IMG/VR virus record: IMGVR_UViG_3300006805_000031
Coordinates: 1 to 57,987 of that record
Strand: one strand, 5' to 3'
DNA length: 57,987 nucleotides
From: a virus
Lineage: Duplodnaviria > Caudoviricetes
How positions within the stretch are numbered: position 1 is the stretch's first letter; each line of letters starts with the position of its first letter. Both the position numbers and the translations under genes were made by a program. Shown here piece by piece: positions 1,771-55,882 of this stretch. The notes under the pieces are model-generated. The model made no database searches, had not been told where the DNA came from, and saw only the letters and a program-made list of their open reading frames with translations.

Positions 1771-4700
1771 TGCTGCTGCATGATGCAGGACTTCCCATCC
1801 TGCCCCTTTCCCACCTCGATAATGCCATCAAACGCCTCTTTGATGTTTGGCACGTGTGTGATAACCAAGATGAACCGAAAGTAGCTCCTAAGGGCTCGTA
1901 GAAGCCGCACACAGGGTTCGATCTGGTTCTCGTCGAGCGTCCCAAACCCCTCATCGATAATCATGAAGTCGGGCTTTGGAAGCGTTGAGATCTGGTGCAG
2001 CACACAACGAATTGCGATCGAGGCAATCGTCTTTTCCATTCCAGAACCAAGCTCCAAAGGCGTGCTGCCGTCGGGATAAATGAGGCGAATCTCCACACCT
2101 CCCTTGTCCTCATCCGTGGATAGCTCAATGTCAAAATCTACGACACCAGCAAGAAGCATTTTTAGATTTGCATTGAGATCAGGCATGAGGGAGCCCAGAA
2201 AGATGTTCTGAACGCCTCTCTTGCTAAGACCGGCCGAGACAAGGGAGTGAATCTTGATCTGCTCTTTTAGGTCGTAGGCTCTTGACAGCTTCTTGCTATT
2301 CTCATCGAGCTTGAGCGCCGAAACGGCATTGTCTCTCTTTAATGCCTCTAGCGAGTCTCGACATACATCCCGGCTGCTCTCCATCTGAAAAAGAGCCCGC
2401 TTGGCGGCGTCGACCCGCTCCCTGACCCTCTTTGCCGAGAAAAGGGCCTCAGCAATCTTTTCAGCCTCCAAGTTTCTTTCGCATGCATCGATGAAACCTC
2501 GCTTCTTGTGGATGGCAATTTCCAATTCAGAAATCTCCGAAAGGACCCCCTTATGTTCACTCTCAATTTTCTTGAGCCGGAGGCGACCTTTAGAAACTTT
2601 GCTCTCAAGCTCCTCCAGCTCAAGAGTCCCGAGAGTGGATAGTTCAGTTTCGTAAGAGGCTACGTTTTCATCTGATTGCTCCAGGGATGCTTGTAGGGCG
2701 GGTAACTTCTTGTTTGCCTCAACGGCATCGTGGATGTAGTGGCAGCTTGGGAACTGGTCGCCACATGGGACAAGCTGCAGCTTCTTCGTTTCCTTTTTGA
2801 GGGCCAAGATTTCCTTGTGAAGCTGAGCATTCTTGGCCCTCTCCTGCGTGAGGCTTGACCGAACTTCTGCGGCGTTTTTCAGTTTGCTTTTAAGCTCTTC
2901 CTCATCAACACCCTTCACGAAAGAAAGGATGCTTTCTTTTTCTTTCACCCAGTCCATCGAGCACTTCTTTGTAAGAGAGGCCTGTAGCTCTTGCATTTGG
3001 CTCTGCAGAGCCAAGAGTTCGCTGGCTAGTTTCTTGACGTTAAATGTCTTGTCTTCCGAGCGAATGCGATCCAGTTCTGCCCGAGCAGAAAGACAGTCGG
3101 CATTCAGCTTCAAAAGTTCAGCTTCAGCAGCTGAAATCTTAAGCTCAAGCTCTTGAAGCTGAGCCTTGTTGGATGCCACAAGCTCCGCCTGAGTTTCAAG
3201 CGGCGAAGAGTTCAGCAGGAACTTTGATTCCGTTTCTAGTGCAGTGAGACGTCGGCGGGCATCGGCGTACATGCGCTCAATAAGATCCAAACCGACCACC
3301 CTTGAAAGAAAATGCTTGCGTGCAGGAGCGTCATGATTTACAAACTTCATGACATTAAACTGCGTAGAGACAGCTGTCATGAGAAAGTCATCGGAACCAC
3401 CTACGACTCGCTGAATGCTCCTGTCTGTTTGGTTGCGTTGTTCCCCCGTGAAGTCTTCATTGTCGGTTACGAACTTGACAGTCGTTAGGGACGTTTCCTG
3501 CAGCTTGTTTTTGACACGCTGCGTCTTTCGAAAGACGTAGTGTCGTTGGCCATTGACAATGAATTGAACCTCTGCAGAACCAGCTGAGGCATTCTTGTTG
3601 ATCATGTGATGCATCTTCTGGCTATCACGATCTGATACGTTGTGGAGGCCATACATCAATGATGCGACCAGCGATGACTTGCCAGTTCGATTTGGGCCCA
3701 TGATCCCAACAATACCTTGCAGGGGATCAAACTTGATGCTATTATCCTCTCCAAACGCAAAAAGGTTTGAGAAGTTCATGCATGACAAAGTCCAGACATT
3801 TCCTCTCTGCAGGTCCTCCTCATGGGCGTTTGCATGGTACAAGGCAGCTGTCAGATCCTCCATTCCGGCCCATGTGCTTTTCGCAAAGCGCTGATCGTTG
3901 TAGAATTTCTGCAATGCATTGAAAATGCTTGCTGCTCCGAACTTAAGTCCCTTTCCGCTGACGGCACCTTGAATACGCTCTTGTAGATTTTTGTCGTCGA
4001 TCTTGGGAACAATCTCAAGAGGCGAGCACTGCCTCACCAAAGCGTCGGAGAGCTTCTGAAAGTCTACGGCGGGGACAGGGACATCCGAGCGGACCCTCAC
4101 TCGACCACCAGAAACCAAATTGGCGGCTGCCTTCATGGTGTTCTTGACGCTGCCCGCCCAATCAATGGTTTGGAATGGGCATGGATTTACGAGCTTAACC
4201 CAAGCGTAATCACGGACGCTTTTATTTGCGGCATCAAGGTCCCAAACAATGAATCCGTGCTCTAGGTCCTCTGCGTAAGTGTTTTGTAGGGCTGAGCCTG
4301 GATATGCAATCCAGGGCATGTTCTTGCCATTTGGGAAGTCTTTGGTTCCGAGAGTTTGGTACTTGTGGATGTCCCCCAGGAAAACAACGTCATAGCCAAG
4401 AGCCGTAAAGTCTCCGACCTTGACATGTCCCTCAATGTTCCATTCCGCCTCAGATACGCTACCTGCGACTGGGCCATGGTAGCACCCCACCAGCATCGCT
4501 TCTTCACCCGCCTCTTGGCGTGGAGAGGAATCCCAGCCACCCTCATCAAAAATGGAGTGCACATAGAATTTGATCGTCTCATCAGACGATGTCGTGTGCG
4601 AATAAAGACCGCTGTGCTTCCAAACCTGAATTCTTGGATGGTTAACCGCAGAGACAATCGGCGAGACAGCGTCTTGGCGGGTCAGGTTTGTGAGTGCCCC

Positions 4701-4958: not shown

Positions 4959-5951
4959 CTACCTCAAAAGACGTGGCATGGCAAGATCAAAGATGCGTGT
5001 TTTCAGATCGAATTCTTGTTGGCCTGAGCCATAAATCTCTTTCATCGCTTTGTTGCCAAGGGAGGCCGGATCAGTTCCGGCTGGAAACGTCAAAAACCGA
5101 ACTTCAACCCCAAAAGCCTGGAAGGCACTGGCCACTCGGTTTCGCTTACGGTTGGCATCTGGATCAAAGCCAAGGACGACTCTTGGCGTGGGAGCTGAGA
5201 TGATCCTGTGAAATAGAAGGCTGTCCTCGTGCACCGTTGAGCCCAACATGGAAACGGTATTGATCCCTTGGCAGGCAGCCCAGTCAAATGGACCCTCCAC
5301 CAATAAAAGCTCTTTGTTGAAGTCAACATCCAGCTCGTTGAATACAATAAGATTCCGACGGGTGCTGGCGTTCATGTACTTGAAGTTGGAGCCAATCGCA
5401 CTTCTGCCCGTAAAATAGTTTACATTTCCGTCGGGGCCGAAGCTAGGCATGATGACACGGCCATAAAACTCAGGGTCCGAAGAAATCCCAAGGCGGCACC
5501 TCTTGAAGTCCGCCAGAGTCAAGCCACGCCCTTGCAGATAGCTGATACACTTCTGGACAATACTTGACTGGCTATCCAAGAGCCGATCCAGCAACTGAAA
5601 TCCTGCAGGGAGCGCCATTCCGGCAGCTGCCTCCTCAGCAACCTGCTGCAACAGCGCCTTGGGTGGGGTGTAATGGGCTCTGGCAGGCCCGTAGACCGAT
5701 TCGCACTCCTGTAAGGCCTGTCCACCCATACCTGCGGCAATAAAGGCCCTGTGGGGCGCCCCGGAGCGCCAATCGCACACCCAGCAATGATTTGCCCCGT
5801 CGGAAGTCCGAAAGGTCAACTTTTTCTTCTTGTAGTCTTTGCTGTCGCAAAATGGGCAGTAAACAGAAAGGTTTTGGCCGTCCGCAGAAGCCGAGATCTT
5901 ACCGAAATATTTTGCGATCAGCTTGTACTTTTCCGAATCAGTGCCGAGCAT
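4959..5951 (-). CDS. DNA primase (Zn-binding domain + TOPRIM), DnaG/T4 gp61-like
   Basis: CPFC...HCWVC zinc ribbon, YLQGRGL, GRVIMP...FTGR, KYMN, VEGPFD, GFDPD. The ATG at 5951 is preferred over the TTG at 6008 because it avoids overlap with the upstream gene and has a TAGACT -10 element 7 nt upstream. Confidence 0.9.
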   Translation of the reverse strand: MLGTDSEKYKLIAKYFGKISASADGQNLSVYCPFCDSKDYKKKKLTFRTSDGANHCWVCDWRSGAPHRAFIAAGMGGQALQECESVYGPARAHYTPPKALLQQVAEEAAAGMALPAGFQLLDRLLDSQSSIVQKCISYLQGRGLTLADFKRCRLGISSDPEFYGRVIMPSFGPDGNVNYFTGRSAIGSNFKYMNASTRRNLIVFNELDVDFNKELLLVEGPFDWAACQGINTVSMLGSTVHEDSLLFHRIISAPTPRVVLGFDPDANRKRNRVASAFQAFGVEVRFLTFPAGTDPASLGNKAMKEIYGSGQQEFDLKTRIFDLAMPRLLR

Positions 5952-5964
5952 GTGGCTCAGTCTA

Positions 5965-6528
5965 TCACTTCTTCTTCCTGGTTTCAAGCAGCTGTAGAGA
6001 TTTCGCAATTACGAAAGCATCAGCCCTGTCATAGCAGAAGTCTTTAGGAGTGCCAGTCCGCTTCGTTGGGTAAGGCATCCCGGACAAAAACCCAGATTGA
6101 GAATAGAGGATCTCGAACGTTTGAGTTTTTTGGTTTTTGCCGCACTTCTTTGCAGGCAAAAGCTTGATCCCCAACGCTTTTCTGGAGTTGTTTGCTGAGA
6201 TCATTCGGCTGTGGAGGCCATACTTCTCCCTCAAAAAGTTACGGATGAGTACGTTGAACTCAATGAGCGTTACAATTGTATTGATGCTCGACTTACCTGG
6301 GGTGAACATCCGCAGCGGTTCCTCTACCTGGCAAAGCATTGGCACATCCGGAAGTTGCGCCATCAGCTCGGCAAAGCGCAACTTAAAGTGCTCAAGCTTG
6401 TTGAAAGCCCCTTCGATATCTTCTGTCTCAATGTGGTCAAACAGTAAGATGGTGCCGGCGGCATCAAGGGCCACAACTCCCGTGTATTTTGTGGAGATAT
6501 CGAGCCCTAGATAGATTTCACCAGTCAT
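5965..6528 (-). CDS. RuvC-like Holliday junction resolvase
   Basis: YLGLDISTKYTGVV (first catalytic Asp), QVEEP (Glu), DRADAFVIA (C-terminal Asp pair): the RNase H-fold resolvase pattern. Confidence 0.85.
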   Translation of the reverse strand: MTGEIYLGLDISTKYTGVVALDAAGTILLFDHIETEDIEGAFNKLEHFKLRFAELMAQLPDVPMLCQVEEPLRMFTPGKSSINTIVTLIEFNVLIRNFLREKYGLHSRMISANNSRKALGIKLLPAKKCGKNQKTQTFEILYSQSGFLSGMPYPTKRTGTPKDFCYDRADAFVIAKSLQLLETRKKK

Positions 6529-10121: not shown

Positions 10122-10838
10122 TCAGAGACTCTTGTTGATGTTTACACGGAATTCTCGTACAGATCCGGACTGCTTTCCGAAAACCCGAACATACGAACTG
10201 ATGATGTTTTTGCTGGTCGACGTGCCGTACACATCGAACTGAGCGTCACTAATGGATTTAGCATTGATCGTCATAGACACAACGCTGCCGCCCTGGGCAT
10301 TCTGAATGGAGTTTCGTGGGATAATGTATAGCGCTCTGCGGTTCCCGTCGACAGAATCAGGAGTAGTGTTTGCCACGCTCAAGAAAAGGTCATTAAGCTC
10401 TACAACAAAAACAGAATCCTGTAGCTCAACATCAATCGATGTCTCTCCAGCAATGTTCTGCTCAAGTGTGATGTTTGCGCTGCGCTGGGAGGTCTTCCCG
10501 AGAGTGATAACGCCAGTGGAGCTATCAAAGGTGCTGTCGCCGCTGAGGCGTAGACTTGGTAGCCGCACAAGATTTGGGTTTGAAACCGTGATGAGCTTGT
10601 ACTTCTGAGCATATGCCTGATTGGTGACAGCCTCAAAAACTGGCGTAAGGCGCTCGATCTTCTCCTTTCCAAGGGCACGACCGTACTGCTTAATGAGGCC
10701 GTAGTTGACCTCATCATCAGCGAACGCAACCTTCACAAAGGAAAATGTGCCGTCATTTCGGCTCAAAAGCTGACGACCAAGATCCGTAAGGACAGTGTCA
10801 ACAATTGGAAGATTTGTGGTATTAGGTAGGAATCCCAT
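10122..10838 (-). CDS. Virion structural protein (238 aa), tail-collar-like N-terminus
   Basis: MGFL...IVDTVLTDLGRQLL...VAFADDEVNY; paralogous to the N-terminus of 17955-18827; CTAGTTA motif upstream. Confidence 0.6.
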   Translation of the reverse strand: MGFLPNTTNLPIVDTVLTDLGRQLLSRNDGTFSFVKVAFADDEVNYGLIKQYGRALGKEKIERLTPVFEAVTNQAYAQKYKLITVSNPNLVRLPSLRLSGDSTFDSSTGVITLGKTSQRSANITLEQNIAGETSIDVELQDSVFVVELNDLFLSVANTTPDSVDGNRRALYIIPRNSIQNAQGGSVVSMTINAKSISDAQFDVYGTSTSKNIISSYVRVFGKQSGSVREFRVNINKSL

Positions 10839-22702: not shown

Positions 22703-24007
22703 ATGAGAACTGGCGCCAAAAAAGCTCTCTTTGAGCAAAAATACGTATCCGATGGACTTCTTCTTGAGGCCATCAAGCCTGAAATCGCCCGGCAGGCTTC
22801 TGCGCTAATTGAGAAACTCAATGAGTTCGAGGATCGAATTCCTGCCGAAAAAAGCCAAAATATTGTCAAGGCAATCAACAAGGCCCAGGCGGATATTCAA
22901 GGGTTCATTGGTTCGTCCTCGATCGCTCGCTGGATCAAAAAGAACCTTTCGCTATCAACAACTCGCAACCCACTCGAAGAAGGGTTGGAGCTTGTGACGC
23001 AGCTGGCGTCTTTCTTCAATCTCATGAAATCCATGAAAGGGCTACTGGAGAAAAAGAGCAAACTTCAAGATGGCCAAAAGACCATCTCGGATCTTCTTGG
23101 TGGGCGAGGTTCGAAAAATTACCAATCGTTCCGGAAGATGCTTGTGCAGGCGCTAAAGCCATCCACCAAACAAATTTCCTCAGGCGGTGTTGCAGGCGGC
23201 ATTTCGAAGCTGCTGCACTACGCAACAGGCGGCAACGATTCATTCTTTGGGGTTGCTATCTCATCCATGGTTGATGAAGTTTGCGACAAATACAGCGTTG
23301 AAGACGTTGCAACTCTTGGTGAATCAAAAGTCGATGTGAATCTTCAGTATTACAAGGGTCTCGCTAAAGTCAGCGACTTCTTTGGGAAGACAGCAGCTGC
23401 GCCAGATCCACAAGCGGCCGTGGACAAACTTGCGGCCGCTGGAGAAGCGCAAGCTCAGTCTGGTGTGGGCGACGCCAAGGGCACAACTCAAAAAATGGGT
23501 TCTGAAGTGGGTGCAAAGCCCACAAGGGGCCCAAGGTCACAGGTTCGTGACTACGCCTCTAAGCTTCCCACTGCCGAAAAGATCTTTCCGGAAAGCCTGC
23601 AGGAGCTTGCAAACATCAAGAAACAGATTGATGGGAAGTCAGCTGCGGAGTACCTCAAAGATTTCATCTACGCAGATCGGCAAAAGTGGAACGCCTTTTT
23701 GAACAACCAAGTCCAGAAAGCTCTGGCTTCAAAAGCAGCATTGCCAGAACTCAAAAAGGTCATCAAAAGCGCAATGATGGATCGTGTAAAAGCAGAAAAG
23801 TCATTGGCAGCTTTTTTGACGAAAACGTGGAAAGAGGGCAAAGAGGGTAACCCTGCGGCTCGGGCAATTCAGGTGAAAAACGCCGTGGAAGCGACAGCGT
23901 CCAAGAAATTTGCGGCGCTTGTGGTCCCTCCAGGAAAGCCGCAAGCTCCAGTCGCACAAGCCGAAGGTCTTGTCCAGACACTGAAAGCTCTAGGCTTACT
24001 TTCCTAG
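22703..24007 (+). CDS. Ala/Lys-rich hypothetical protein, counter-oriented; possible internal head protein
   Basis: The ATG at 22703 avoids overlap with the divergent gene and follows a CTACGTA motif; long helical low-complexity protein. Confidence 0.6.
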   Translation: MRTGAKKALFEQKYVSDGLLLEAIKPEIARQASALIEKLNEFEDRIPAEKSQNIVKAINKAQADIQGFIGSSSIARWIKKNLSLSTTRNPLEEGLELVTQLASFFNLMKSMKGLLEKKSKLQDGQKTISDLLGGRGSKNYQSFRKMLVQALKPSTKQISSGGVAGGISKLLHYATGGNDSFFGVAISSMVDEVCDKYSVEDVATLGESKVDVNLQYYKGLAKVSDFFGKTAAAPDPQAAVDKLAAAGEAQAQSGVGDAKGTTQKMGSEVGAKPTRGPRSQVRDYASKLPTAEKIFPESLQELANIKKQIDGKSAAEYLKDFIYADRQKWNAFLNNQVQKALASKAALPELKKVIKSAMMDRVKAEKSLAAFLTKTWKEGKEGNPAARAIQVKNAVEATASKKFAALVVPPGKPQAPVAQAEGLVQTLKALGLLS

Positions 24008-25231
24008 GTCCTCAACAATAACACCTGAAAGTGATGTCAGGTGTCGCACCAAGGCCGCACTCATGTCGAATGCGGCTTTGTACGTTGACGCAGGAACAAT
24101 TTCAGCGCCAAACATCACTCGCTCAGCCTCGGAAAGCACCACGGCGCCACTGTTTTTGTAAGCCAGGATCACTTTGAAGGCCCTATCCAAGTTTTGCTGC
24201 AGCATTTTGTTGCGTGAATTTTCCGGAATCAAAATGTCCCAGCGTGATGGACTTAGGCTGAAAATCCTATCACGATAGATCTTTGCCTCTTCTGGAGTTG
24301 CCGATGAAGCTTTTTCTTCCAGCTCGTCGAGTTTAGCTTTTGTGCGGAAGCTACTGCCGTTGACGAATACCACAAGGCCGAACTTGCTAATCTCAACTCG
24401 CTGCAACATAGGAAAGTCTTCGAACTTCAGAGACGGCAAGGTAAGGCCTCCCTGCAAATCAATGACTTGACATCCTGTAATTGTCGACATGTCAAAGAAT
24501 GTGTTTACCGTTGGATTATCCAGCGGGAACTCACACAGAAGAAGTTTCAGTGTGCCACGATAAAAGTTCACCGAAGATGTATTCTTGATATCGTCTCCAA
24601 ATGACCTGGCGCAAACCAAAAATGGTGTGTTGGTTTTTGAGGCCTCTTGGAGCTGAACATCGAGCTGTGAAACGTCCTGAATGTGGCCGTCGTAGCACAA
24701 GATCCTGCAATTGCTTAGATTCACATCGCCAGGACTGTATTGGCGGGGGTGAAAGACGTGCCCAGATGTCTTCGCAATGTAGATTTCGGAAAGGTCGGGG
24801 CGGGCATTTTGAATGCTGACACGGGATAGGCCCTTAGACGCATCCAGGAACTGTTTGGCTACCACCCCCGCATCGGCACCGCACAAATCGATTAGAGAGG
24901 CTTCCAGGGGCCCTCGTGAGGGTCTAATTGCCTGGGTCGTCTTCGTGATGGCGGGCTTTCCCAAAAGTGCATGTCTGGCAAGCTTGAGTGTCGCTCGAAG
25001 GGCGCCTGGGCCTGCTTTCTCGGCATTCATTGCATGCTCAAGGCACGCTGTCACCACCAAAGCCTCTTGATTATTGGTGTTGTTGATGTTGTAGCTACTG
25101 GCCAGAGGGCCGCCAGCAGCCCAACTCCCAGCCTTACCCACAATAGGGCTATTAAGATCTGTCACAGAAATAGCCGCATTGATTGCCTGAATCAGATCTT
25201 GTGGTTCGATAGCTGAGTATTTTGTGGCCAT
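23996..25231 (-). CDS. Degenerate GroEL/Cpn60-like chaperonin (apical domain recognisable, ATP-binding motif lost)
   Basis: NCRILCYDGHIQDVSQL...EASKTNTPFLVCARSFGDD...VNFYRGTLKL...DMSTITGCQVI...YRDRIFSL aligns by eye to GroEL PFILLADKKISNIREM...AKAGKPLLIIAEDVEGE...VNTMRGIVKV...DIATLTGGTVI...LQERVAKL. Confidence 0.72.
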   Translation of the reverse strand: MATKYSAIEPQDLIQAINAAISVTDLNSPIVGKAGSWAAGGPLASSYNINNTNNQEALVVTACLEHAMNAEKAGPGALRATLKLARHALLGKPAITKTTQAIRPSRGPLEASLIDLCGADAGVVAKQFLDASKGLSRVSIQNARPDLSEIYIAKTSGHVFHPRQYSPGDVNLSNCRILCYDGHIQDVSQLDVQLQEASKTNTPFLVCARSFGDDIKNTSSVNFYRGTLKLLLCEFPLDNPTVNTFFDMSTITGCQVIDLQGGLTLPSLKFEDFPMLQRVEISKFGLVVFVNGSSFRTKAKLDELEEKASSATPEEAKIYRDRIFSLSPSRWDILIPENSRNKMLQQNLDRAFKVILAYKNSGAVVLSEAERVMFGAEIVPASTYKAAFDMSAALVRHLTSLSGVIVEDLGK

Positions 25232-25245
25232 CCCAAAATGGTAGC

Positions 25246-25812
25246 TCAATGACCAGCTTTTGTCGTCAGCTCGTAGATTGTCTTGATCAAAACGCCAAAC
25301 AAGCTAAGGATGCCTAGCAAAAGCGACCAAAAGATCTTGCCGCCCCATTCCCGAGCTAGGTTTGCTGATTTGTGATCGTGCCTAGCATTGGTAAGAGCAC
25401 CAGAGTCCGACTCAAGTTCTGCTTTCCATTTCCGGAGATCTTCAAGATCTTCTTCGATCACTTCAAGCTTCCTTGCGATGTTATTGGCTCCTTCTGTCTG
25501 AACCTTCTCAACGTCTTTGATTCGTGAAAACACTCCACGATCAGGTTCATACAAGATATTACTAAGATCTTCCATTTTCTGGAGGACTGTTGAGTGAGAT
25601 TTCTCAATATTGCTGATCTTCTGAAGCAATGAGTCAAATCCCCCATCAAACACAGGTGAACTGAGTTTTTGATGTAGGAATTTCAGCAATGCATTTAGCT
25701 CTTTCTGCTTTTCCCCCTCAGAGTGCTTAGAGGTGATTAGCGCTGAGGGCAGCTTAGGGGCAGCTGCAGAGTCCTGAGCTGAAGGTGGGTTGTTCTTGCG
25801 GTACTTTCTCAT
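25246..25812 (-). CDS. Coiled-coil protein with single C-terminal transmembrane helix (holin-/XhlA-like topology)
   Basis: IFWSLLLGILSLFGVLI hydrophobic stretch; heptad region upstream; CTATTTA motif before the ATG. Confidence 0.55.
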   Translation of the reverse strand: MRKYRKNNPPSAQDSAAAPKLPSALITSKHSEGEKQKELNALLKFLHQKLSSPVFDGGFDSLLQKISNIEKSHSTVLQKMEDLSNILYEPDRGVFSRIKDVEKVQTEGANNIARKLEVIEEDLEDLRKWKAELESDSGALTNARHDHKSANLAREWGGKIFWSLLLGILSLFGVLIKTIYELTTKAGH

Positions 25813-25823
25813 GTTGTTTTGGG

Positions 25824-25830
25824 TAAATAG
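25824..25830 (-). promoter_or_regulatory. Putative late promoter motif CTANNTA (representative copy CTATTTA)
   Basis: The same motif lies 6-15 nt before eight start codons (listed in findings). Confidence 0.55.
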
Positions 25831-25914
25831 AGAAAAGATCAGATCGGTGCATTTTTTGGTTAACAGCCGGCTGAAGGGATCCTACACTAAAAATAAGCAA
25901 TTTCGTATCTCTGT

Positions 25915-25961
25915 TCTCTGCAAGAGAGGTACGAACGAAGTGAGTACCGAACAAGCAGAGA
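25915..25961 (+). repeat. Hairpin H1 (G.A-mismatch / GAA mini-loop)
   Basis: TCTCTGC-AAGAGA-GGTAC-GA-AC-GAA-GT-GA-GTACC-GAACAA-GCAGAGA. Confidence 0.9.
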
Positions 25962-25974
25962 GTATTTCTTCTCT

Positions 25975-26012
25975 ATAAATTGCGAGCGAGCGTCAGCGAG
26001 CAAGCAATTTAT
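25975..26012 (+). repeat. Hairpin H2
   Basis: ATAAATTGC-GA-GC-GA-GC-GTCA-GC-GA-GC-AA-GCAATTTAT. Confidence 0.9.
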
Positions 26013-26040
26013 TTCTCTATCTGATCTAAGCTAGATCAAG

Positions 26041-26113
26041 ATCAAATCCCATTTCTCTACGAGAGAGTTCCGAGCGAAGCGAGGAGCGAACAAGTAGAGA
26101 AATGGGATTTGAT
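26041..26113 (+). repeat. Hairpin H3 (20-bp perfect outer stem)
   Basis: ATCAAATCCCATTTCTCTAC-GAGAGA-GTTCC-GA-GC-GAA-GC-GA-GGAGC-GAACAA-GTAGAGAAATGGGATTTGAT. Confidence 0.95.
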
Positions 26114-26148
26114 TTGTGTCTGAGGGCACTGCAGCAGATCTAGAGCTA

Positions 26149-26193
26149 ATCCCAAATTTGGTCACTCACTTCGTTCGTTCCCAAATTTGGGAT
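26149..26193 (-). repeat. Hairpin H4
   Basis: Minus strand reads ATCCCAAATTTGG-GA-AC-GA-AC-GAA-GT-GA-GT-GA-CCAAATTTGGGAT. Confidence 0.92.
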
Positions 26194-26211
26194 CCATGGG
26201 GCAGCTGGAGC

Positions 26212-26266
26212 TTGATCTAGGTTTGATCTAGGATTGATCTAGGTTTGATCTAGGTTTGATCTAGGA
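26212..26266. repeat. Five tandem 11-bp direct repeats TTGATCTAGG(T/A), iteron-like
   Basis: Units start at 26212, 26223, 26234, 26245 and 26256. Confidence 0.95.
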
Positions 26267-26327
26267 TTCTAATTTGTATTGGGTAAAGTGATCTAGTCTT
26301 AACCTAGCACTATCATGCTCAGTCTTT

Positions 26328-26356
26328 CCCAAGATCTCGCTGCGCTCGATCTTGGG
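26328..26356 (-). repeat. Hairpin H5
   Basis: Minus strand reads CCCAAGATC-GA-GC-GCA-GC-GA-GATCTTGGG. Confidence 0.9.
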
Positions 26357-26413
26357 GACTCAGTGGTGGCTAAATAGATCTAGATATTACTGATCTAGCT
26401 TGATAGATCTGAT

Positions 26414-26441
26414 CCAGGATCTCGCTAGCGCTCGATCCTGG
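26414..26441 (-). repeat. Hairpin H6
   Basis: Minus strand reads CCAGGATC-GA-GC-GCTA-GC-GA-GATCCTGG. Confidence 0.9.
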
Positions 26442-26479
26442 GGCTTCAGAACTTTGTTGATGAGCAGAGCTTGGTGAGC

Positions 26480-26485
26480 TAAAAT
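26480..26485 (+). promoter_or_regulatory. Putative sigma70-type -10 element TAAAAT, leaderless spacing (representative copy)
   Basis: 6 nt upstream of ATG 26492; the same arrangement occurs at six other non-structural genes. Confidence 0.5.
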
Positions 26486-26491
26486 GCCCCT

Positions 26492-28396
26492 ATGTCGAAG
26501 CAGATCGTATTTGTCTCTGATTACTTCTCAGATCAGTTGACTGGAGGTGCAGAGCTTAGTCTTGGAACCCTGATGGATTCAGCGTCTGAGTTTGGCGCTA
26601 AAATCCTTAGGTTGAACTCCAAGGATGTGACTGCTGATCTCATTAACCTGCACAAGAATTCCTATTGGGTATTCGGTAACTACGCTGGGGTACTTCCTGA
26701 GTTGCTTCAGAAAATCTCTGGCGCTATTCGGTATTCAGTAATCGAATTTGACTACAAGTATTGCAAACACCGACTCCCTCAGGCTCATACAGACTCCGTG
26801 TGCGACTGTGAAAATGGATTCCTTGGTAAGTTCATTTCTGGCTTCATGTACGGAGCTGAAACACTTTGGTTTATGTCTCAAGGTCAGCTTGAGCACTATG
26901 CCCAGAAATTTCCGAGCCTTGTCGACCGCCCTATGCGGGTCTTGGGTAGCACTTTTTCTAAGCAGGATCTTGAAAAGATTGTGCTGCTTTCGCATACACC
27001 CAAGAAGGATCATTACCTTGTCCTTCAGTCGGACTCTTGGGTGAAAGGTACCGATAAGTCGGTTGAGTATTGCAAGGAAAACAATCTCCCGTACAAGCTT
27101 GTTGGTGGTGTGAGTTACGATGAAATGCTCAGTGAGCTGGCACAAGCAAAGGGTCTTGTCTATATGCCTCAGGGCTATGACACGTGCCCACGGCTTGTGA
27201 TCGAGGCGAAAATCCTTGGGGCTGAAATTCGCACGAACTCTTTTGTTCAGCACATCAGCGAGCCCTGGTTCTATAACCTCGAATCCATTTTCGAATGGCT
27301 CCTGAAAAGCCCCGCAATGTTTTGGGCGGACACTCTTCGCCGGGCCGAGAAAAAATACACGATCTCTTCGTACTTCACGACCCGCAATTGCGTGCAGCAG
27401 GAATACCCATTCGAGCAATCCATTGAGTCGTGTTTTGCATTTTCGGATGAAATTGTTGTCGTCGATGGCGGCAGCACAGATGGAACGCTAGACCGTCTAG
27501 AAGCCCTCAGGAAGCGTTTTGAGGCGCAGGCTGACAAAGTATTCATTGTGCACTCAAACGACGTTTATACGGGCCGCCAAGTGGATGCATCGATGGCTCT
27601 AGCCGATGGCCAGCAGAAAGCTCTTGCTCGTTCCTTGTGCACTAGTGATTTCTGCTGGCAAATGGATGTCGACGAAATTGTGCACGAAGATGACTGCGCT
27701 AAGATTCTTGAACTCGCCAAGAACTTCCCGAAGGCTCCAATGATTGCTCTGCCAGTCACGGAATACTGGGGTGGATTCAGCAAGATTCGAATGGATATCA
27801 CTCCATGGAAGTGGCGTATGGGCTACAATAGTCCTCGGATCACGCATGGGGTTCCCGCAGATTTGCGGACAGCCACAGGGGCTGTGGGTGGAACGGATGG
27901 CTGCGATCCTATTGATGCGCAGACTGGTGATAGGATTCCCCACATTACGTTCTGGGATCAAAACGCCGCACACGCTAGGGAGCATGCACTTCTTGCAAAT
28001 CCGGAAGCTGTGCATGATTACTCGGATTGGTTCGCCAGAGTAACAGCTGAACTTCCCGGCGTGCATCACCTTAGTTGGCTAGACATCAATCGAAAGATTC
28101 GGTTGTACAGGGATTATTGGTCCAAGCACTGGGATGCACTGTTCGGCTCAGATGAGCCAAGCAATCACTTTTTCCCAGGTAAGAAGTGGACGGACGTCAC
28201 AAATCAGGACATTGAGGAGTTGGCAAAGAAGCTCACCTCACAGACTGGTGGTCATATCTTTCATGCTCCGTGGGCCGGCCAAAGAACTCCATGGATTGAC
28301 GCAAATGCGTACAATTTCAAACAACCACCAGCTTGCCTTAATGTTCAACGGGAAGCTACACATGAAACGCAAAAGGATGTAGAAAATGATTGGTAA
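26492..28396 (+). CDS. Two-domain glycosyltransferase (GT-B/GT4-like + GT-A/GT2-like)
   Basis: N-terminal half: GGAE, KG, DTCPRLVIEAKILG. C-terminal half: SDEIVVVDGGSTDGT, WQMDVDEIV, HHLSW. Confidence 0.85.
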   Translation: MSKQIVFVSDYFSDQLTGGAELSLGTLMDSASEFGAKILRLNSKDVTADLINLHKNSYWVFGNYAGVLPELLQKISGAIRYSVIEFDYKYCKHRLPQAHTDSVCDCENGFLGKFISGFMYGAETLWFMSQGQLEHYAQKFPSLVDRPMRVLGSTFSKQDLEKIVLLSHTPKKDHYLVLQSDSWVKGTDKSVEYCKENNLPYKLVGGVSYDEMLSELAQAKGLVYMPQGYDTCPRLVIEAKILGAEIRTNSFVQHISEPWFYNLESIFEWLLKSPAMFWADTLRRAEKKYTISSYFTTRNCVQQEYPFEQSIESCFAFSDEIVVVDGGSTDGTLDRLEALRKRFEAQADKVFIVHSNDVYTGRQVDASMALADGQQKALARSLCTSDFCWQMDVDEIVHEDDCAKILELAKNFPKAPMIALPVTEYWGGFSKIRMDITPWKWRMGYNSPRITHGVPADLRTATGAVGGTDGCDPIDAQTGDRIPHITFWDQNAAHAREHALLANPEAVHDYSDWFARVTAELPGVHHLSWLDINRKIRLYRDYWSKHWDALFGSDEPSNHFFPGKKWTDVTNQDIEELAKKLTSQTGGHIFHAPWAGQRTPWIDANAYNFKQPPACLNVQREATHETQKDVENDW

Positions 28397-28856
28397 AACA
28401 CCCACAGATAAGAACGGTAACCCTGTTCACATTCCGATCCCCAAAGACCTTGGGAAGCCTGGCGGTCCTCGGTTTATGGACCTCCTGTATTACCACCTAA
28501 ACCTCAAGGTTTCTGGTTTCGCTGGCCAACATGCAACAAAAGAAACGCTTGAGGATATCTACGACACAATTCTGCAGACCATTGGCGAGACCATGAATCG
28601 CACTGGTATCTCACGGAAAACATGTGAGTTCTTGGCGCAACGCATCTACGAATCTATCAAGATTTCATCTAATGTAGTGCAGCTTCCGGCCCCAGAGGAT
28701 TGGGAGCATTCTACAAGAGGTAAGCATGTTTATGACCGAGTCCTTGTGGATCAGCTTCCTCCAGCCGAGCTGCGCCTTGTGGCAGGGCTGTTTTCGGATT
28801 CCGTATTCGCTGAAGAGCTTCGGCAAGGAATTGCCAAATTGAGCGTGCGGGCGTAA
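28386..28856 (+). CDS. Hypothetical protein (156 aa)
   Basis: ORF coupled to both neighbours. Confidence 0.6.
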   Translation: MIGKTPTDKNGNPVHIPIPKDLGKPGGPRFMDLLYYHLNLKVSGFAGQHATKETLEDIYDTILQTIGETMNRTGISRKTCEFLAQRIYESIKISSNVVQLPAPEDWEHSTRGKHVYDRVLVDQLPPAELRLVAGLFSDSVFAEELRQGIAKLSVRA

Positions 28857-28857
28857 C

Positions 28858-29400
28858 ATGAAGGTATTTTACAAATCTTGTGACTTCTCCGGCCTAGACA
28901 CAACAACGCCAGCTGGCGCAAGATTTGTAAAGCTGGTTACCCTTCTTGATATGATGGGATACCAGCCAGTTGATTTCCCGTGCGAAGCTGACATCATCAC
29001 TCATCTGAGCCCAACAAAAGACCTTTGGTCATTTGCGGATAAAATGATCGATGAGTGGCCTGAAGACTGCAGTGAAGAATCGCAGCTCATTCTTGTAGAT
29101 GAGCCAGACTATTCCATTGAAGACATTCAGCTGATCCGATCGCAAAACCCAGAGGCCCAGATTTGCCTGCTAAGCGCCAGCAAGATCCCATCAGGTAAAA
29201 AAAAGAAGAACGAGGTGTTCATGGAGGAGGCTTCCGTAGAGCATGTTGTGAACCTTCTTCGTTACGCCGATTCGTTTTTTTCCCAAACAACTCCCATTGA
29301 GCAATTTATGGGATTTGGAGTTGAGTTTCGGTCGGAGCCTGGTTGCACGCCGTACCGCAAAATTAAACCTAGGGACTTTGCCGTTTCTGTGCTGATTTGA
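28858..29400 (+). CDS. Hypothetical protein (180 aa) in glycosylation cluster
   Basis: ORF coupled to its neighbours; no firm motif. Confidence 0.55.
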   Translation: MKVFYKSCDFSGLDTTTPAGARFVKLVTLLDMMGYQPVDFPCEADIITHLSPTKDLWSFADKMIDEWPEDCSEESQLILVDEPDYSIEDIQLIRSQNPEAQICLLSASKIPSGKKKKNEVFMEEASVEHVVNLLRYADSFFSQTTPIEQFMGFGVEFRSEPGCTPYRKIKPRDFAVSVLI

Positions 29401-30725: not shown

Positions 30726-31163
30726 ATGAAAAACAGAAATCTCACCCACTCCGATTGTTGGGCAACACCACCTGAATTCTACAACTCCCTTGACAAAGAA
30801 TTTGGTTTCGACTTTGATCCGTGCCCGCTACGTGACCCCGAAACCATCACGCCAGAAACAGATGGCCTCCTCATCGACTGGGGGAACATGAATTTCGTGA
30901 ATCCCCCCTACAAGTTGCCCCTAAAGACGGCATTTGTGAAAAAGGCAATTGAAGAGCAGAAGAAGGGCCGGACTTCGGTTATGCTACTGCCTGTCTCCAC
31001 GAGCACTGTCCTCTTCCACGACTACATCAAACCCAATGCAGAGGAGATTCGATTTGTCAGAGGGCGAATCAAGTTCATTGGAACGAACACATTCGGCGAA
31101 ACTGTAAACAAAAATGCAGGAATGCACGACTCGATGGTCGTTGTGCTCCGAGGACACAAATGA
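30726..31163 (+). CDS. Phage DNA N6-adenine methyltransferase (short Dam family)
   Basis: WATPPEF...FDFDPC...DGLLIDW...FVNPPY...VMLLPVSTST...EIRFVRGRIKF. Confidence 0.88.
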   Translation: MKNRNLTHSDCWATPPEFYNSLDKEFGFDFDPCPLRDPETITPETDGLLIDWGNMNFVNPPYKLPLKTAFVKKAIEEQKKGRTSVMLLPVSTSTVLFHDYIKPNAEEIRFVRGRIKFIGTNTFGETVNKNAGMHDSMVVVLRGHK

Positions 31164-53319: not shown

Positions 53320-53320
53320 T

Positions 53321-54301
53321 ATGGCATATTCATACGATATTGGTGGAACATCACCAGCCACTGGTGCAGTGGCAATGTTTAGGTTTAAAGCGACCTTAAA
53401 AGCTGCTGGGTGGACAGTCACAAAATCAAGTGACGGCACAACCTACAATTCCAGTGGCGATCAGATCACCTCTGGGGCAGCCGGCGCCAATGGCATGGCC
53501 AACAACAATGCATGGTTTGTCATCAAATCCCCATCTGTTTCGTTCCCACGCTCCATTTGTGTACAACGAGGCACAACAAATTTGCTTTGGAGGGTCAAGT
53601 ATTCGGGGACAGCTGGGTATGTTGGTGGCTCGCCCGCAGCGGCCGTAACTCCATCTTCAACAGATGATCAGATTCTGTTTGGGGCGGGAACCGACGCCGC
53701 CCCAACATTCACGCAGCTGCTTTCCGCAGACAACACATACAAGATCAATGTGGTGGCTGGCGGCGCCGCAGAATACTACTCATTTATGTTCTTCACAAAC
53801 ATCAATGGTTCAAGCACGATCACATCCTACTTTTTTCTGGACCCAATGCTCCCAGGAACTTACCCAGTTGCTGACGTTGATCCGTGCGTTATTGACCTTG
53901 GCTACAATAACGCCTCAAACCTAAATACAAACCTTACAGCAGTTGCAACATGCCCAAGGGGTTGGTTAAGAAAAGGTTTGGCCGGAGAAGGCTTTGTTCG
54001 AATCCCGTGCTTGTTTTTGTTTGGTAATTCCGCCGTTGTCTATCCAGGAGGCGCTGGTCAGAACTCGTTCACTACAAATGACGAAACGATCCCTGTCTCA
54101 TATGCCCGACCCGCCGGACAGCCAGCACCTGCAGGATGGAAGGGGGTCGGGACACTAATTTACCTAAATGGGGTGTTTCGAGCCAGCGGCGACACCCTTT
54201 CCGCAAACTCGACAAAAGATAGATTGATTTTGTCTGCGTCGCCAACATCCACAGCTGTGTACATTTCCATTCCGTGGAACGGAACCGATCTTTTGGTGTA
54301 A
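53321..54301 (+). CDS. Putative tail-fibre-associated structural protein
   Basis: ATG 2 nt after the upstream stop; LKAAGWTV motif; Gly/Ala/Thr-rich beta protein. Confidence 0.6.
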   Translation: MAYSYDIGGTSPATGAVAMFRFKATLKAAGWTVTKSSDGTTYNSSGDQITSGAAGANGMANNNAWFVIKSPSVSFPRSICVQRGTTNLLWRVKYSGTAGYVGGSPAAAVTPSSTDDQILFGAGTDAAPTFTQLLSADNTYKINVVAGGAAEYYSFMFFTNINGSSTITSYFFLDPMLPGTYPVADVDPCVIDLGYNNASNLNTNLTAVATCPRGWLRKGLAGEGFVRIPCLFLFGNSAVVYPGGAGQNSFTTNDETIPVSYARPAGQPAPAGWKGVGTLIYLNGVFRASGDTLSANSTKDRLILSASPTSTAVYISIPWNGTDLLV

Positions 54302-54302
54302 C

Positions 54303-54611
54303 GTGGCCACATACACATCCACCATTCTCCCCGCCACAGTTGCATCAGTCTCCGCCAGAACCCCTTTTTACGCAACAAGGCTCCCGGCAAGATTAGCGAG
54401 AAGGATCGAATATGTGGCATGCAGAGCATCATCGCCTTGGTTGAGCTACCGTTCCACTCGAACAATTTACGTGTTTCGTGGCCAAACCGAAAATAACGCA
54501 TATGTCCTGTGGTCTAACTTCACAGGAAGTGCTTTAGACGCAATGCCAAAAACGGCAACAAAAAACATTGTCTCGATTGGGTCTTGGGAGATCGCTGATG
54601 GCAACATATAG
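54303..54611 (+). CDS. Small hypothetical protein (paralog A)
   Basis: GTG start 2 nt after the upstream stop; MATYTSTILPA...YVFRGQ. Confidence 0.55.
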   Translation: MATYTSTILPATVASVSARTPFYATRLPARLARRIEYVACRASSPWLSYRSTRTIYVFRGQTENNAYVLWSNFTGSALDAMPKTATKNIVSIGSWEIADGNI

Positions 54612-54819: not shown

Positions 54820-54839
54820 CCCTGCAAGAAAGTCGTTAC

Positions 54840-55842: not shown

Positions 55843-55882
55843 GTCTTTAGCCTAGTGCATTTCGCTATCTAAGCGAAAGCCT

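What the first reader, a model, noticed from the sequence alone, without database searches (positions are those of the whole stretch)
25915..26441. Six strand-polarised G.A-mismatch hairpins arranged 3(+)/3(-) at the transcription strand switch: candidate ssDNA signal array / bidirectional origin
Seen: six hairpins with mostly unrelated stems but one shared cap, stem-GA-RC-G(N1-2)A-GY-GA-stem. H1 (25915-25961) and H3 (26041-26113) also share the internal loop RAGAGA/GAACAA while their stems differ and remain paired. H2 and H4 carry two stacked GA-type mismatch steps. The AC/GT versus GC/GC swaps in the cap are compensatory. H1-H3 present the purine-rich motif on the + strand and H4-H6 on the - strand, so each group lies on the template strand for movement away from the centre, matching the direction of the flanking genes. 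Established: d(GCGAAGC)-type GNA mini-hairpins and tandem sheared G.A pairs are unusually stable in ssDNA. GAGCGCAGCGAG (H5) also occurs in the ColE1/pBR322 primosome-assembly (ssi/pas) region, and phage N4 virion RNA polymerase reads template-strand hairpins with 3-nt loops. Inference: structure rather than sequence is selected, and the array is a bidirectional priming/helicase-loading site (or a set of hairpin promoters). I do not recognise this multi-hairpin architecture as a described myovirus origin.
Basis: partly seen in the sequence, partly recalled or inferred. Interest (0 to 1): 0.9.

Follow-up and report, generated by a model that had tools for sequence, protein, structure and literature searches.

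The report
Strand-polarised DNA mini-hairpin array
Six small DNA hairpins with an unusually stable tip, three on each strand, flank a block of short repeats between two diverging gene groups of a giant phage, and most likely mark where copying (less likely packaging) of the phage DNA starts.

Summary
The cap GA-RC-G(N1-2)A-GY-GA occurs 6 times in the 57,987-bp window. All six lie in 25933-26433, three on + and then three on - (about 1 expected). All six sit on Watson-Crick stems. H1 and H3 differ at 9 of 47 positions, and 8 of these form 4 compensatory pairs.

The array shares a 679-bp divergent intergenic region with five 11-bp iterons and 22 GATC sites. The contig is a T4-like jumbo-phage fragment that encodes a phage Dam methylase and a primase.

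My best reading (0.35) is an iteron-type replication origin with strand-specific single-strand initiation hairpins, closest in layout to IncQ oriV. A Dam-controlled pac site, hairpin promoters and structured RNAs remain possible. Both tests are weak here.

The same GA-clamped cap occurs in strand-polarised clusters in more than 100 unrelated viral and metagenome contigs. Its R/Y positions covary, and its loops follow the DNA G-N-N-A rule, not the RNA GNRA rule. One of these clusters has the same +/- layout inside a replication module.

This scan has noted GCGAAGC-type hairpin arrays on other DNA before. I found no paper describing them.

The parts
25913..25963 (+). H1: hairpin with GA-clamped cap GAACGAAGTGA (25933-25943) on the + strand. 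Core is 25915-25961. The two flanking G.T wobbles (25913/25963, 25914/25962) become G-C in other populations.
   Evidence: (I10)
25975..26012 (+). H2: 9-bp stem, two stacked purine-mismatch steps, cap GAGCGTCAGCGA (25988-25999), loop GTCA.
26041..26113 (+). H3: 20-bp perfect outer stem, internal loop GAGAGA/GAACAA, inner stem with a T.G wobble, cap GAGCGAAGCGA (26072-26082). A paralogue of H1.
   Evidence: I1, D3; z -8.3
26149..26193 (-). H4: 13-bp stem; on the - strand GA-AC-GA-AC-GAA-GT-GA-GT-GA (cap 26166-26176). The cap region is an inverted copy of that of H1.
   Evidence: (I11, I3)
26212..26265 (.). Five tandem 11-bp iterons TTGATCTAGGT (one helical turn apart), each with a GATC site. 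They lie between H4 and H5.
   Evidence: (period 11, 4.9 copies, 95% matches)
26328..26356 (-). H5: 9-bp stem, cap GAGCGCAGCGA (26337-26347) on the - strand.
26414..26441 (-). H6: 8-bp stem, cap GAGCGCTAGCGA (26422-26433) on the - strand. A paralogue of H5 with one compensatory pair.
   Evidence: (D4)
25813..26491 (.). The whole divergent intergenic region. It holds 22 GATC sites (32 per kb against 5.4 per kb in the window, the densest 680-nt stretch of the window) and 10 of the window's 13 GATCTAG boxes. GC is 0.44 against 0.50 for the window.
25246..25812 (-). Left flanking gene (188 aa, no confident family), transcribed leftwards away from the array.
26492..28396 (+). Right flanking gene (634 aa, glycosyltransferase family 2 domain), transcribed rightwards away from the array.
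30726..31163 (+). Phage-type Dam (N6-adenine) methyltransferase, which could methylate the GATC cluster.
   Evidence: PF05869, E 6e-24
4959..6008 (-). DnaG/toprim-type DNA primase, a candidate reader of the hairpins.
   Evidence: phrog_47, E 1.3e-26; weak DNAG_N

Best explanation
The 679-bp region is a cis-acting DNA site, most likely an iteron-type replication origin. In it, six strand-specific single-stranded-DNA hairpins act as single-strand initiation signals.

Proposed sequence of events:
1. A protein binds the five helically phased 11-bp iterons and the scattered GATCTAG boxes. Dam methylation of the 22 GATC sites may gate this step.
2. Negative supercoiling or helicase action opens the duplex.
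3. On each side, the strand carrying the purine-rich cap folds into hairpins. Each tip (a C-G(N1-2)A-G mini-hairpin clamped by tandem G.A pairs) resists melting and SSB. The complementary pyrimidine strand does not hold such a fold.
4. The phage primase, or a primosome loader, uses these persistent hairpins as entry marks.
5. Because H1-H3 are on + and H4-H6 on -, RNA or DNA made on them grows away from the centre on both sides. This starts two diverging leading strands.

Shown: the hairpins, their strand bias, compensatory evolution, DNA-type loop rule, iterons, GATC density, the Dam and primase genes, and the divergent-gene setting.

Inferred: unwinding, SSB resistance in this context, priming, and the identity of the iteron binder.
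For: Hairpins and cap:
- The cap is unique to this region and strand-ordered.
- H1/H3 have 4 compensatory pairs and none broken; H5/H6 have 1.
- Population variants in 2-3 runs of different studies turn both G.T wobbles at the foot of H1 into G-C: 25914 T>C and 25963 T>C.
- The cap strand folds better at 6 of 6 sites.
- Four of six caps are exact GCGNAGC/GCGNNAGC DNA mini-hairpins. The review PMC13037366 (passages) places such hairpins at the G4/St-1/alpha3 primase origins, RSF1010 ssiA and the N4 early promoter.

Cross-contig rules for the cap:
- Tetraloops are GNRA-like in only 47 of 141 caps, which fits the DNA rule and not the RNA rule.
- The R and Y positions of the cap covary. The table is 134/7/11/26 after removing pattern-forced caps; Fisher p = 2e-16.

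Origin-like setting:
- Five 11-bp iterons.
- GATC density six times the window mean, with a phage Dam gene.
- A primase gene.
- A T4-type phage (T4-type TerL, a weak gp55-like sigma, baseplate wedge).
- The T4 review PMC3016281 (passages) says oriE has evenly spaced 12-nt iterons, and that oriE, oriF and oriG lie where transcription switches strand.
- In RSF1010 oriV, iteron binding and unwinding expose two hairpin priming signals on complementary strands (PMC8567376, passages).

An unrelated contig with the same layout: L078 has caps on + followed by caps on -, within an imperfect palindrome, between SbcCD-like and DNA-helicase genes. There are 3 strict (+) caps, a fourth containing an N, and 3 (-) caps. 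L115 has a cluster 2.3 kb from a primase/helicase gene.
Against: - No GC- or AT-skew inflection at 26 kb.
- No equivalent region or stemmed cap in five distant relatives.
- No long AT-rich unwinding element. The richest 40-nt stretch is 72.5% A+T.
- No recognisable initiator gene next to the iterons.
- In other contigs, cap clusters lie more often beside terminase genes (10 of 46) than beside replication genes (2 identified). Their polarity relative to genes is random: 14 against 13.
- Outside this window most caps lack long stems. Stems of 5 bp or more occur at 31 of 181 caps against 20 +/- 4 for permuted partners.
- T4, N4 and G4 carry 1, 0 and 0 strict caps. No proven origin or promoter therefore uses this exact cap.
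- Nothing here measures replication.
Confidence: 0.35

Rival explanations
1. A packaging initiation (pac) site of the P1 kind. Terminase subunits bind the clustered GATC-containing repeats. Phage Dam methylation gates cutting, and the hairpins help to bend or mark the site.
For: - P1 pac is a 161-bp site with seven TGATCA/G hexamers (4 + 3) carrying Dam sites, and methylation controls cleavage (PMC10028697, passage).
- Here there are 22 GATC sites, nine TGATC and three GATCA, five phased iterons and a phage Dam gene.
- In other contigs 10 of 46 intergenic cap clusters lie within about 3 kb of a large-terminase gene, mostly just upstream of the small/large terminase pair.
- On contigs of 10 kb or more, 15 of 84 pattern matches lie within 500 nt of a contig end, against 3.1 expected.
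Against: - The large terminase gene of this phage is 25 kb away.
- No known pac or cos site uses hairpins.
- P1 pac lies inside pacA, not in an intergenic region.
- The contig-end excess can come from assemblies breaking at repeats.
- The terminase-adjacent contigs are partly related to each other (seven share phrog_38), so they are not independent cases.
Confidence: 0.2
2. Template-strand hairpin promoters, either N4-like or ssDNA promoters read by the host RNA polymerase. Each extruded hairpin would recruit an RNA polymerase that transcribes outward into the flanking operon.
For: - The geometry fits. In N4 the three GCG(A/G)AGC hairpins lie on the template strand, 24-60 nt upstream of gp1, gp2 and gp15.
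- Here the H6 cap ends 59 nt before the + gene, and the H1 cap lies 121 nt before the - gene, each on the template strand.
- N4 hairpins need a C:G closing pair and a G..A loop for extrusion, and their template-strand hairpin resists SSB (PMC4496689, passages).
Against: - Three of six loops break the N4 rule of a 3-nt loop with a central purine: GCA, GCTA and GTCA.
- There is no conserved flank on the 5' side of the hairpins. Only H5 and H6 share one (D4).
- No single-subunit RNA polymerase was detected in the 20 window ORFs scanned against Pfam or in the 30 scanned against PHROGs. The window is only about 16% of the genome.
- The phage has a gp55-like late sigma, which points to use of the host polymerase.
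- Three tandem promoters per side would be unusual.
- Across contigs the geometry is promoter-like in 14 clusters and not in 13.
Confidence: 0.15
3. Two convergent small structured RNAs: H1-H3 read rightwards and H6-H4 read leftwards. Their hairpins would work as RNA, for example in protein binding or stability.
For: - A sigma-70-like site at 25860-25888 (+) lies just upstream of H1.
- H1-H3 are followed by T-rich tracts.
- Tandem G.A pairs are also stable in RNA (general knowledge).
- OTKONC RNA genes lie about 0.5 kb from cap arrays in L052 and L113.
Against: - No Rfam family reaches its threshold here. The best match is 25.3 bits against a gathering score of 100.
- The loops are GAA, GCA, GCUA and GUCA, none of them GNRA. 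Across contigs only 47 of 141 tetraloops are GNRA-like.
- None of H1-H6 was called terminator-like; the only such site found lies at 26485-26502.
- H4-H6 have no T-run on their strand.
Confidence: 0.08
4. A locally expanded copy set of a selfish or mobile hairpin repeat (MITE, PATE or REP-like) with no role for the phage.
For: - H1/H3 and H5/H6 are duplicates, and the H4 cap region is an inverted copy of that of H1.
- Some contigs carry several separate arrays, for example one 58-kb contig with at least four.
- Earlier notes of this scan (e1-5251103, e1-5510733) describe mobile hairpin repeats with GNA loops.
Against: - There is no copy anywhere else in the 58-kb window.
- I looked for no target-site duplications or transposase.
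- Compensatory changes, and population variants that strengthen a stem, point to selection on the fold in place.
- Across the parts that the contigs cover, the region shows fewer differences than the flanking genes: 5 SNPs and 1 indel in 679 nt, against 20 SNPs and 1 indel in about 1,020 nt.
Confidence: 0.07

Closest known systems
oriV of IncQ plasmids (RSF1010/R1162): iterons plus ssiA and ssiB
   Same: - An initiator binds iterons.
- Unwinding exposes hairpin priming signals that lie on complementary strands in inverted orientation. A dedicated primase starts leading strands on them (PMC8567376, passages).
- The ssiA hairpin is capped by a C-GAA-G mini-hairpin (PMC13037366).
   Different: - One 40-nt signal per strand there, three hairpins per strand here.
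- The iterons are 11 bp, and they sit inside the minus-strand hairpin group.
- The primase here is DnaG/toprim-like, not RepB'.
- There is no sequence similarity.
- I could not fetch RSF1010, so no direct comparison was made.
Early promoters P1-P3 of coliphage N4 (virion RNA polymerase)
   Same: - A G+C-rich heptamer GCG(A/G)AGC flanked by inverted repeats, on the template strand upstream of genes.
- A G..A loop closed by C:G drives extrusion, and the hairpin resists SSB (PMC4496689).
   Different: - N4 stems abut the loop directly, with no G.A clamp. N4 has 0 strict caps in 70 kb.
- The N4 loop is always 3 nt with a central purine.
- N4 has a conserved -17 to +1 flank.
- N4 needs a giant virion RNA polymerase, which was not detected here.
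Primase-dependent complementary-strand origins of G4, St-1 and alpha3
   Same: A GCGNNAGC mini-hairpin at the site where host primase starts the primer on SSB-coated single strands. In G4, GCGAAAGC at 3977 lies inside the annotated primer 3970-3997 (PMC13037366).
   Different: - Those are single-stranded phages with one origin on one strand.
- There is no G.A clamp (0 strict caps).
- There are no iterons and no two-strand arrangement.
ColE1-type ssiA/ssiB (PriA-dependent primosome assembly sites)
   Same: - Strand-specific hairpin signals on each strand near an origin load the primosome (PMC3167613, passages).
- ColE1 carries its only strict cap, GAGCGTAGCGA, at 1332 in non-coding DNA upstream of rop.
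   Different: - A single cap there, not an array.
- The local fold is not better than shuffles (z +0.2).
- I could not confirm from a held paper that the cap lies inside the mapped site, nor its distance from the origin.
- That system depends on host PriA.
T4 oriE
   Same: A T4-type phage with a cluster of evenly spaced short direct repeats (12 nt in T4, 11 nt here), at a place where transcription switches strand (PMC3016281, passages).
   Different: - No role of the T4 iterons has been shown (same review).
- T4 has only one strict cap in 169 kb, at 102890. I did not check how that lies relative to oriE.
- No hairpin array is described there.
P1 pac
   Same: Clustered short GATC-containing repeats, together with a phage Dam that gates the site (PMC10028697).
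   Different: - Seven hexamers inside a gene.
- No hairpins.
- A different terminase family.

Membership tests
DNA mini-hairpin (Hirao): GCGNAGC / GCGNNAGC | Sequence G-C-G-N(1-2)-A-G-C: two G-C pairs closing a G..A loop | tested here: met
   H2, H3, H5 and H6 match exactly. H1 and H4 carry A-C-GAA-G-T, with the outer pair changed on both sides. The definition is from PMC13037366.
DNA mini-hairpin (Hirao): GCGNAGC / GCGNNAGC | Extraordinary thermal and nuclease stability of the single strand | not testable with these tools
   The nearest-neighbour DNA fold favours the cap strand by only 0.4-1.7 kcal/mol. That model has no term for sheared G.A loops.
N4-type hairpin promoter | 5-7-bp stem directly closing a 3-nt loop with a central purine | tested here: not met
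   A 2-bp stem, then a tandem G.A step. The loops are GAA (three times), GCA, GCTA and GTCA. N4's own three sites are shown.
N4-type hairpin promoter | Conserved -17 to +1 flank with a fixed start site | tested here: not met
   The 5' flanks of the six hairpins share no motif. Only H5 and H6 share one.
N4-type hairpin promoter | A cognate single-subunit (virion) RNA polymerase | tested here: inconclusive
   None was detected in the 20 window ORFs scanned against Pfam or the 30 scanned against PHROGs. The contig is about 16% of the genome.
Iteron-type replication origin | Tandem, helically phased direct repeats | tested here: met
   Five 11-bp repeats at 26212-26265, 95% matches.
Iteron-type replication origin | An adjacent initiator gene and an A+T-rich unwinding element | tested here: not met
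   The flanking 188-aa and 417-aa proteins have no family. The richest 40-nt stretch is 72.5% A+T.
Iteron-type replication origin | Replication starts here (skew switch, marker frequency, autonomous replication) | tested here: inconclusive
   No skew inflection, on a 16% fragment. Only contigs could be laid, not raw reads.
IncQ-type ssi pair | Hairpin priming signals on complementary strands in inverted orientation beside iterons | tested here: met
   Three on + and three on -, around and beside the iterons.
IncQ-type ssi pair | A RepB'-type primase and primer synthesis on the signal | not testable with these tools
   The primase here is toprim/DnaG-like. There is no assay.
P1-type pac site | Clusters of GATC-bearing short repeats plus a phage Dam | tested here: met
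   22 GATC sites and five iterons. Dam PF05869.
P1-type pac site | Terminase cuts here (defined DNA ends) | not testable with these tools
   Contigs cannot show molecule ends.
Intrinsic terminator | G+C-rich stem followed directly by a T-run, downstream of a gene | tested here: not met
   None of H1-H6 was called by the scan. Both flanking genes point away from the array.
REP/MITE-like dispersed repeat | Copies scattered over the genome | tested here: not met
   0 caps outside 25933-26433 in 58 kb. The rest of the genome is unseen.
Any Rfam family | Score at or above the gathering threshold | tested here: not met
   The best match is 25.3 bits against 100.

The most novel reading that the evidence does not exclude
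The array is one instance of a widespread, undescribed class of cis-elements: strand-polarised arrays of 'GA-clamped' C-G(N1-2)A-G DNA mini-hairpins (GAGCGNAGCGA / GAACGNAGTGA). Very different phages would use them as SSB-resistant single-strand landmarks where DNA synthesis, or DNA-end processing, begins. The carriers include jumbo and T4-like myoviruses, siphovirus-like contigs next to their terminase genes, a 202-kb contig with inverted terminal repeats, giant-virus contigs and 2-kb circles, as well as some cellular replicons. On this reading the element is defined by DNA physics, not by a shared protein.
Probability: 0.3. Interest if true: 0.85.

Novelty: new variant of a known kind. Interest (0 to 1): 0.62.

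Why it matters
Origins of replication are unknown for almost all jumbo and T4-like environmental phages. Even the role of the T4 oriE iterons is unsettled (PMC3016281). A sequence-defined, strand-specific hairpin signal beside iterons would give a directly testable origin model, with defined oligonucleotides, a candidate primase and a candidate Dam switch.

More broadly, the GA-clamped cap recurs in more than 100 unrelated contigs, with covariation and a DNA-type loop rule. This suggests that single-stranded-DNA structure is a common and overlooked layer of signalling in double-stranded DNA phages. If so, the cap would be a cheap computational marker for origins, genome ends or packaging sites in metagenomic phage genomes.

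Tried and rejected
**Close relatives for covariation**
- blastn of 25300-27000 against 50,697 phage records found no match.
- Protein-guided scans with the 417-aa and 188-aa neighbours found nothing in viral contigs. A scan with an alignment of the 417-aa protein found nothing in metagenome contigs.
- The iteron dimer has no exact match in viral contigs.
- The glycosyltransferase neighbour has 14 relatives, but their upstream DNA is a tail-fibre gene plus a terminator, or another glycosyltransferase gene, not this region.
- Homologues of the 417-aa protein in 3 of 5 related fragments sit in uninterrupted same-strand gene rows without GATC-dense gaps.
- A 100%-identical 411-aa protein is on record on a 92,567-bp contig.

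**Sequencing runs**
- No RNA holder is listed. Three wastewater runs are labelled RNA-Seq only by a guess.
- All four runs I laid are contigs, so they give no transcript ends, no molecule ends and no usable depth profile.
- Parts of the region lack cover in X5, X12 and X19, and contigs break at the iterons. I draw nothing from this.

**Enrichment control**
- The reversed pattern is invalid, because the reversed motif overlaps the motif itself when shifted by one base. It returned many of the same loci.
- The genome-contig scan also hit its limit. Many of its hits are in G+C-rich actinobacterial DNA, where chance and coding repeats are likely, and I did not analyse them further.

**Literature**
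- Searches for the heptamer and for four 11-nt caps gave no relevant paper. Of the 112 papers holding a cap, the 25 listed are primer or vector hits, judged by title and start of abstract. None of them describes phage hairpin arrays.
- PMC346372 is not held.
- Supplementary files were not consulted.

**Readings rejected**
- Terminators.
- A known Rfam RNA.
- A library adaptor artefact: 20 listed runs from 11 studies hold at least part of the 6-kb stretch 23000-29000, and contigs of the four runs laid cover parts of the region itself.
- Chi-like sites. The polarity at the inverted terminal repeats of L079/L081 is the wrong way round for protection from RecBCD. This last point is my own reasoning and was not tested.

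**Not done**
- I did not fold the 188-aa or 417-aa proteins.
- I built no covariance model.
Full report
**What the DNA is.** The window is a whole IMG/VR viral contig of 57,987 bp, rated about 16% complete, so it is a piece of a genome of a few hundred kb. It encodes:
- a T4-type large terminase, ClpP, a phage Dam methylase (30726-31163) and a PD-(D/E)XK nuclease;
- an SbcCD-like fusion protein and glycosyltransferases;
- a toprim-type primase at 4959-6008, PhoH, baseplate wedge and tail-fibre proteins;
- a weak gp55-like late sigma factor.

The nearest cultured phages share only 41-43% identity in the terminase: Microcystis phage Mel-JY01 and Flavobacterium phage immuto. The finding lies in the 679-bp gap 25813-26491. 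To its left is a leftward 188-aa gene. To its right is a long rightward block that starts with a 634-aa glycosyltransferase gene.

**The observation.** It is correct.
- The cap GA-RC-G(N1-2)A-GY-GA occurs six times in the window, all between 25933 and 26433, three on + followed by three on -.
- Dinucleotide shuffles give 0.52 and 0.45 matches for the two loop lengths.
- Each cap sits on a Watson-Crick stem of 5 to 20 bp. In H2 and H4 the stem is reached through a second G.A/R-Y step.
- The only strict caps in five related jumbo-phage fragments (6 in 599 kb) have 0-1 flanking pairs, so they are chance matches.
- DNA folding reproduces the proposed anatomy, with z-scores from -2.2 to -8.3.

**Selection on the fold.**
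- H1 and H3 are paralogues. Over the 47 nt of H1 they differ at nine positions. Eight of these are four double changes that keep a pair, including the A-T to G-C swap inside the cap. No pair is lost.
- H5 and H6 show one more double change.
- In contigs from other wastewater, seawater and estuary runs, two substitutions (25914 T>C and 25963 T>C, seen in two and three runs) convert the two G.T wobbles at the foot of H1 into G-C. This lengthens the stem from 7 to 9 pairs.
- Across what those contigs cover, the region shows fewer differences than the flanking genes.
- One 5-nt tandem duplication falls in the 3' internal loop of H1 in one run.

**DNA or RNA, and which strand.**
- The purine-cap strand folds better than its complement at all six sites.
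- H3 has a T.G wobble that would be an A-C mismatch on the other strand.
- Four caps are exact GCGNAGC/GCGNNAGC. These are the 'mini-hairpin DNA' of Hirao and colleagues, stable through two G-C pairs and a sheared G.A pair (PMC13037366, passages).
- The loops here (GAA three times, GCA, GCTA, GTCA) obey the DNA rule, G...A with any middle base. They do not obey the RNA GNRA rule.
- The same holds in a wider sample. Of 141 four-base loops in caps from other contigs, only 47 have a purine at the third position.
- I therefore read the hairpins as single-stranded-DNA structures. This is an inference from loop rules, not a measurement.

**The company they keep.**
- Five perfect-phase 11-bp repeats (TTGATCTAGGT, 26212-26265) lie between H4 and H5.
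- Ten of the window's 13 GATCTAG boxes are in the region.
- The region holds 22 GATC sites, six times the window's density and the maximum of any 680-nt stretch.
- Together with the phage Dam gene, this matches two known kinds of site: Dam-gated origins and the P1 pac site.

**Comparison with known systems.**
- *IncQ oriV is the nearest in architecture.* RepC binds iterons, RepA unwinds, and two hairpin signals on complementary strands (ssiA and ssiB) are primed by RepB' (PMC8567376). ssiA carries a C-GAA-G mini-hairpin.
- *T4.* Its oriE has evenly spaced 12-nt repeats of unproven role. Its oriE, oriF and oriG sit at transcription strand switches (PMC3016281).
- *N4.* The early promoters are template-strand hairpins. 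I located them in the N4 record on the minus strand, 24-60 nt before gp1, gp2 and gp15. The geometry of H1 and H6 relative to their genes is similar.
- *Why this is not a member of the N4 family.* The array has a G.A clamp, three loops that break the N4 loop rule, no conserved flank, and no detected polymerase.
- *The exact cap is rare in the model systems.* N4 and G4 contain no strict cap and T4 contains one. ColE1 contains exactly one, at 1332 in non-coding DNA upstream of rop.

**The cap elsewhere (new in this stage).**
None of them is related to this phage.
- In 73 of the 113 viral loci there are three or more caps within 700 bp, and 66 of those 73 clusters are on a single strand.
- 46 clusters are intergenic by a simple ORF call.
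- The R and Y positions of the cap covary across these contigs. A-C goes with G-T in 26 of 37 cases; Fisher p = 2e-16 after removing pattern-forced caps. Copies within an array are not independent.
- Contexts differ:
  - Ten of the 46 clusters lie within about 3 kb of a large terminase gene, mostly just upstream of the terminase operon.
  - Two lie by helicase or primase genes.
  - On contigs of 10 kb or more, 15 of 84 matches lie within 500 nt of a contig end, against 3.1 expected. This could reflect real genome ends or assembly breaks.
  - Polarity relative to the next gene is 14 against 13.
- L078 repeats the architecture of the window. It has three strict (+) caps plus a fourth containing an N, followed by three (-) caps, within an imperfect palindrome between SbcCD-like and helicase genes.
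- Outside the window most caps are bare or short-stemmed: 31 of 181 have stems of 5 bp or more, against 20 +/- 4 for permuted partners.
- Earlier notes of this scan had flagged GCGAAGC-type arrays on other genomes, with readings from ssDNA promoters to microvirus origins to mobile repeats. I treat these as leads only.

**Weighing.**
- *What all DNA-level readings share.* The cap-bearing strand is the template for synthesis running away from the centre on both sides. Primase and RNA polymerase both move towards the 5' end of their template, so polarity alone cannot separate priming from transcription.
- *For an origin.* The iterons, the strand-switch setting in a T4-type phage, the IncQ parallel, the primase gene and the replication-module twin L078.
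- *Against an origin.* There is no skew inflection, no conservation in distant relatives, no initiator gene and no clear unwinding element. In other phages the association is more often with terminase genes.
- *Odds.* I put the origin reading at 0.35, a Dam-gated pac site at 0.20, hairpin promoters at 0.15, structured RNAs at 0.08 and a functionless local repeat expansion at 0.07. The rest is unassigned.

**Novelty.** Mini-hairpins at origins and hairpin promoters are known. The following appear in none of the papers my searches returned, nor in Rfam:
- a two-strand, three-plus-three array of GA-clamped caps around iterons in a T4-like jumbo phage;
- the wide recurrence of that exact cap in strand-polarised arrays.

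I class the finding as a new variant of a known kind. There is a real chance that it belongs to a general, undescribed class of ssDNA signal.

Noticed in passing
L081:1-1110 and L079:9400-10607 (the two ends of one 201,907-bp viral contig): The ends are inverted terminal repeats of about 870 bp (97-99% identical). They carry 4-5 copies of a ~54-nt unit with a GAGCG(T/C)AGCGA cap. The first ~220 nt of the left end are also an inverted copy of nt ~250-470, a fold-back that could mean a closed hairpin end.
   Followed up: partly
L109:4595-4936, L190:2556-2764 and 10272-10664, L200:2341-2609 (one 58,298-bp contig): At least four separate cap arrays, all on one strand. They are built of units 'TTTAAATA(C) + cap + a 4-bp/GTTA hairpin + G/T run', so in this genome the caps are multi-locus.
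   Followed up: partly
L432:711-1180: Sixteen caps at a 21-22-bp period, alternating GAACGAAGTGA and GAGCGTAGCGA with A+T-rich linkers. The array looks like iterons.
   Followed up: no
L113:3545-3708 and L052:454-623: Rfam OTKONC RNA (RF03053, 154-157 bits, above its threshold) lies about 0.5 kb from long cap arrays, on the same strand, in two related A+T-rich phage contigs.
   Followed up: no
window 26038-26117: In run X12 one 308-nt contig (depth 3.3) carries the inside of H3 in flipped orientation between its 20-nt arms. This could be a real flip at the inverted repeat, or a library or assembly chimera.
   Followed up: no
window 25969-25980, 26013-26020, 26053-26060, 25822-25836(-): TTCTCTA(T/C) occurs 5 times in the region, out of 10 in the window. 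One copy runs into the window's only TATAAAT (25974-25980), at the 5' foot of H2. Another lies 11 nt before the 188-aa gene. These are possible late-promoter-like boxes.
   Followed up: partly
window 23996-25249 (-): The 417-aa neighbour protein has no Pfam or PHROG family. It has a 40% identical relative on a 2.8-kb contig, a weak hit to a chaperonin-family (PF00118) protein, and 25-28% identical homologues in 3 of 5 related jumbo-phage fragments.
   Followed up: partly
window 25814-25827 and 26274-26287: A 14-nt direct repeat (13 of 14 identical) brackets H1-H4 and the iterons. The first copy overlaps the start of the 188-aa gene (D9).
   Followed up: no
window 51200-57400: Collagen-like 9/18/36/72-nt tandem repeats in the fibre genes at the right end of the window.
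   Followed up: no
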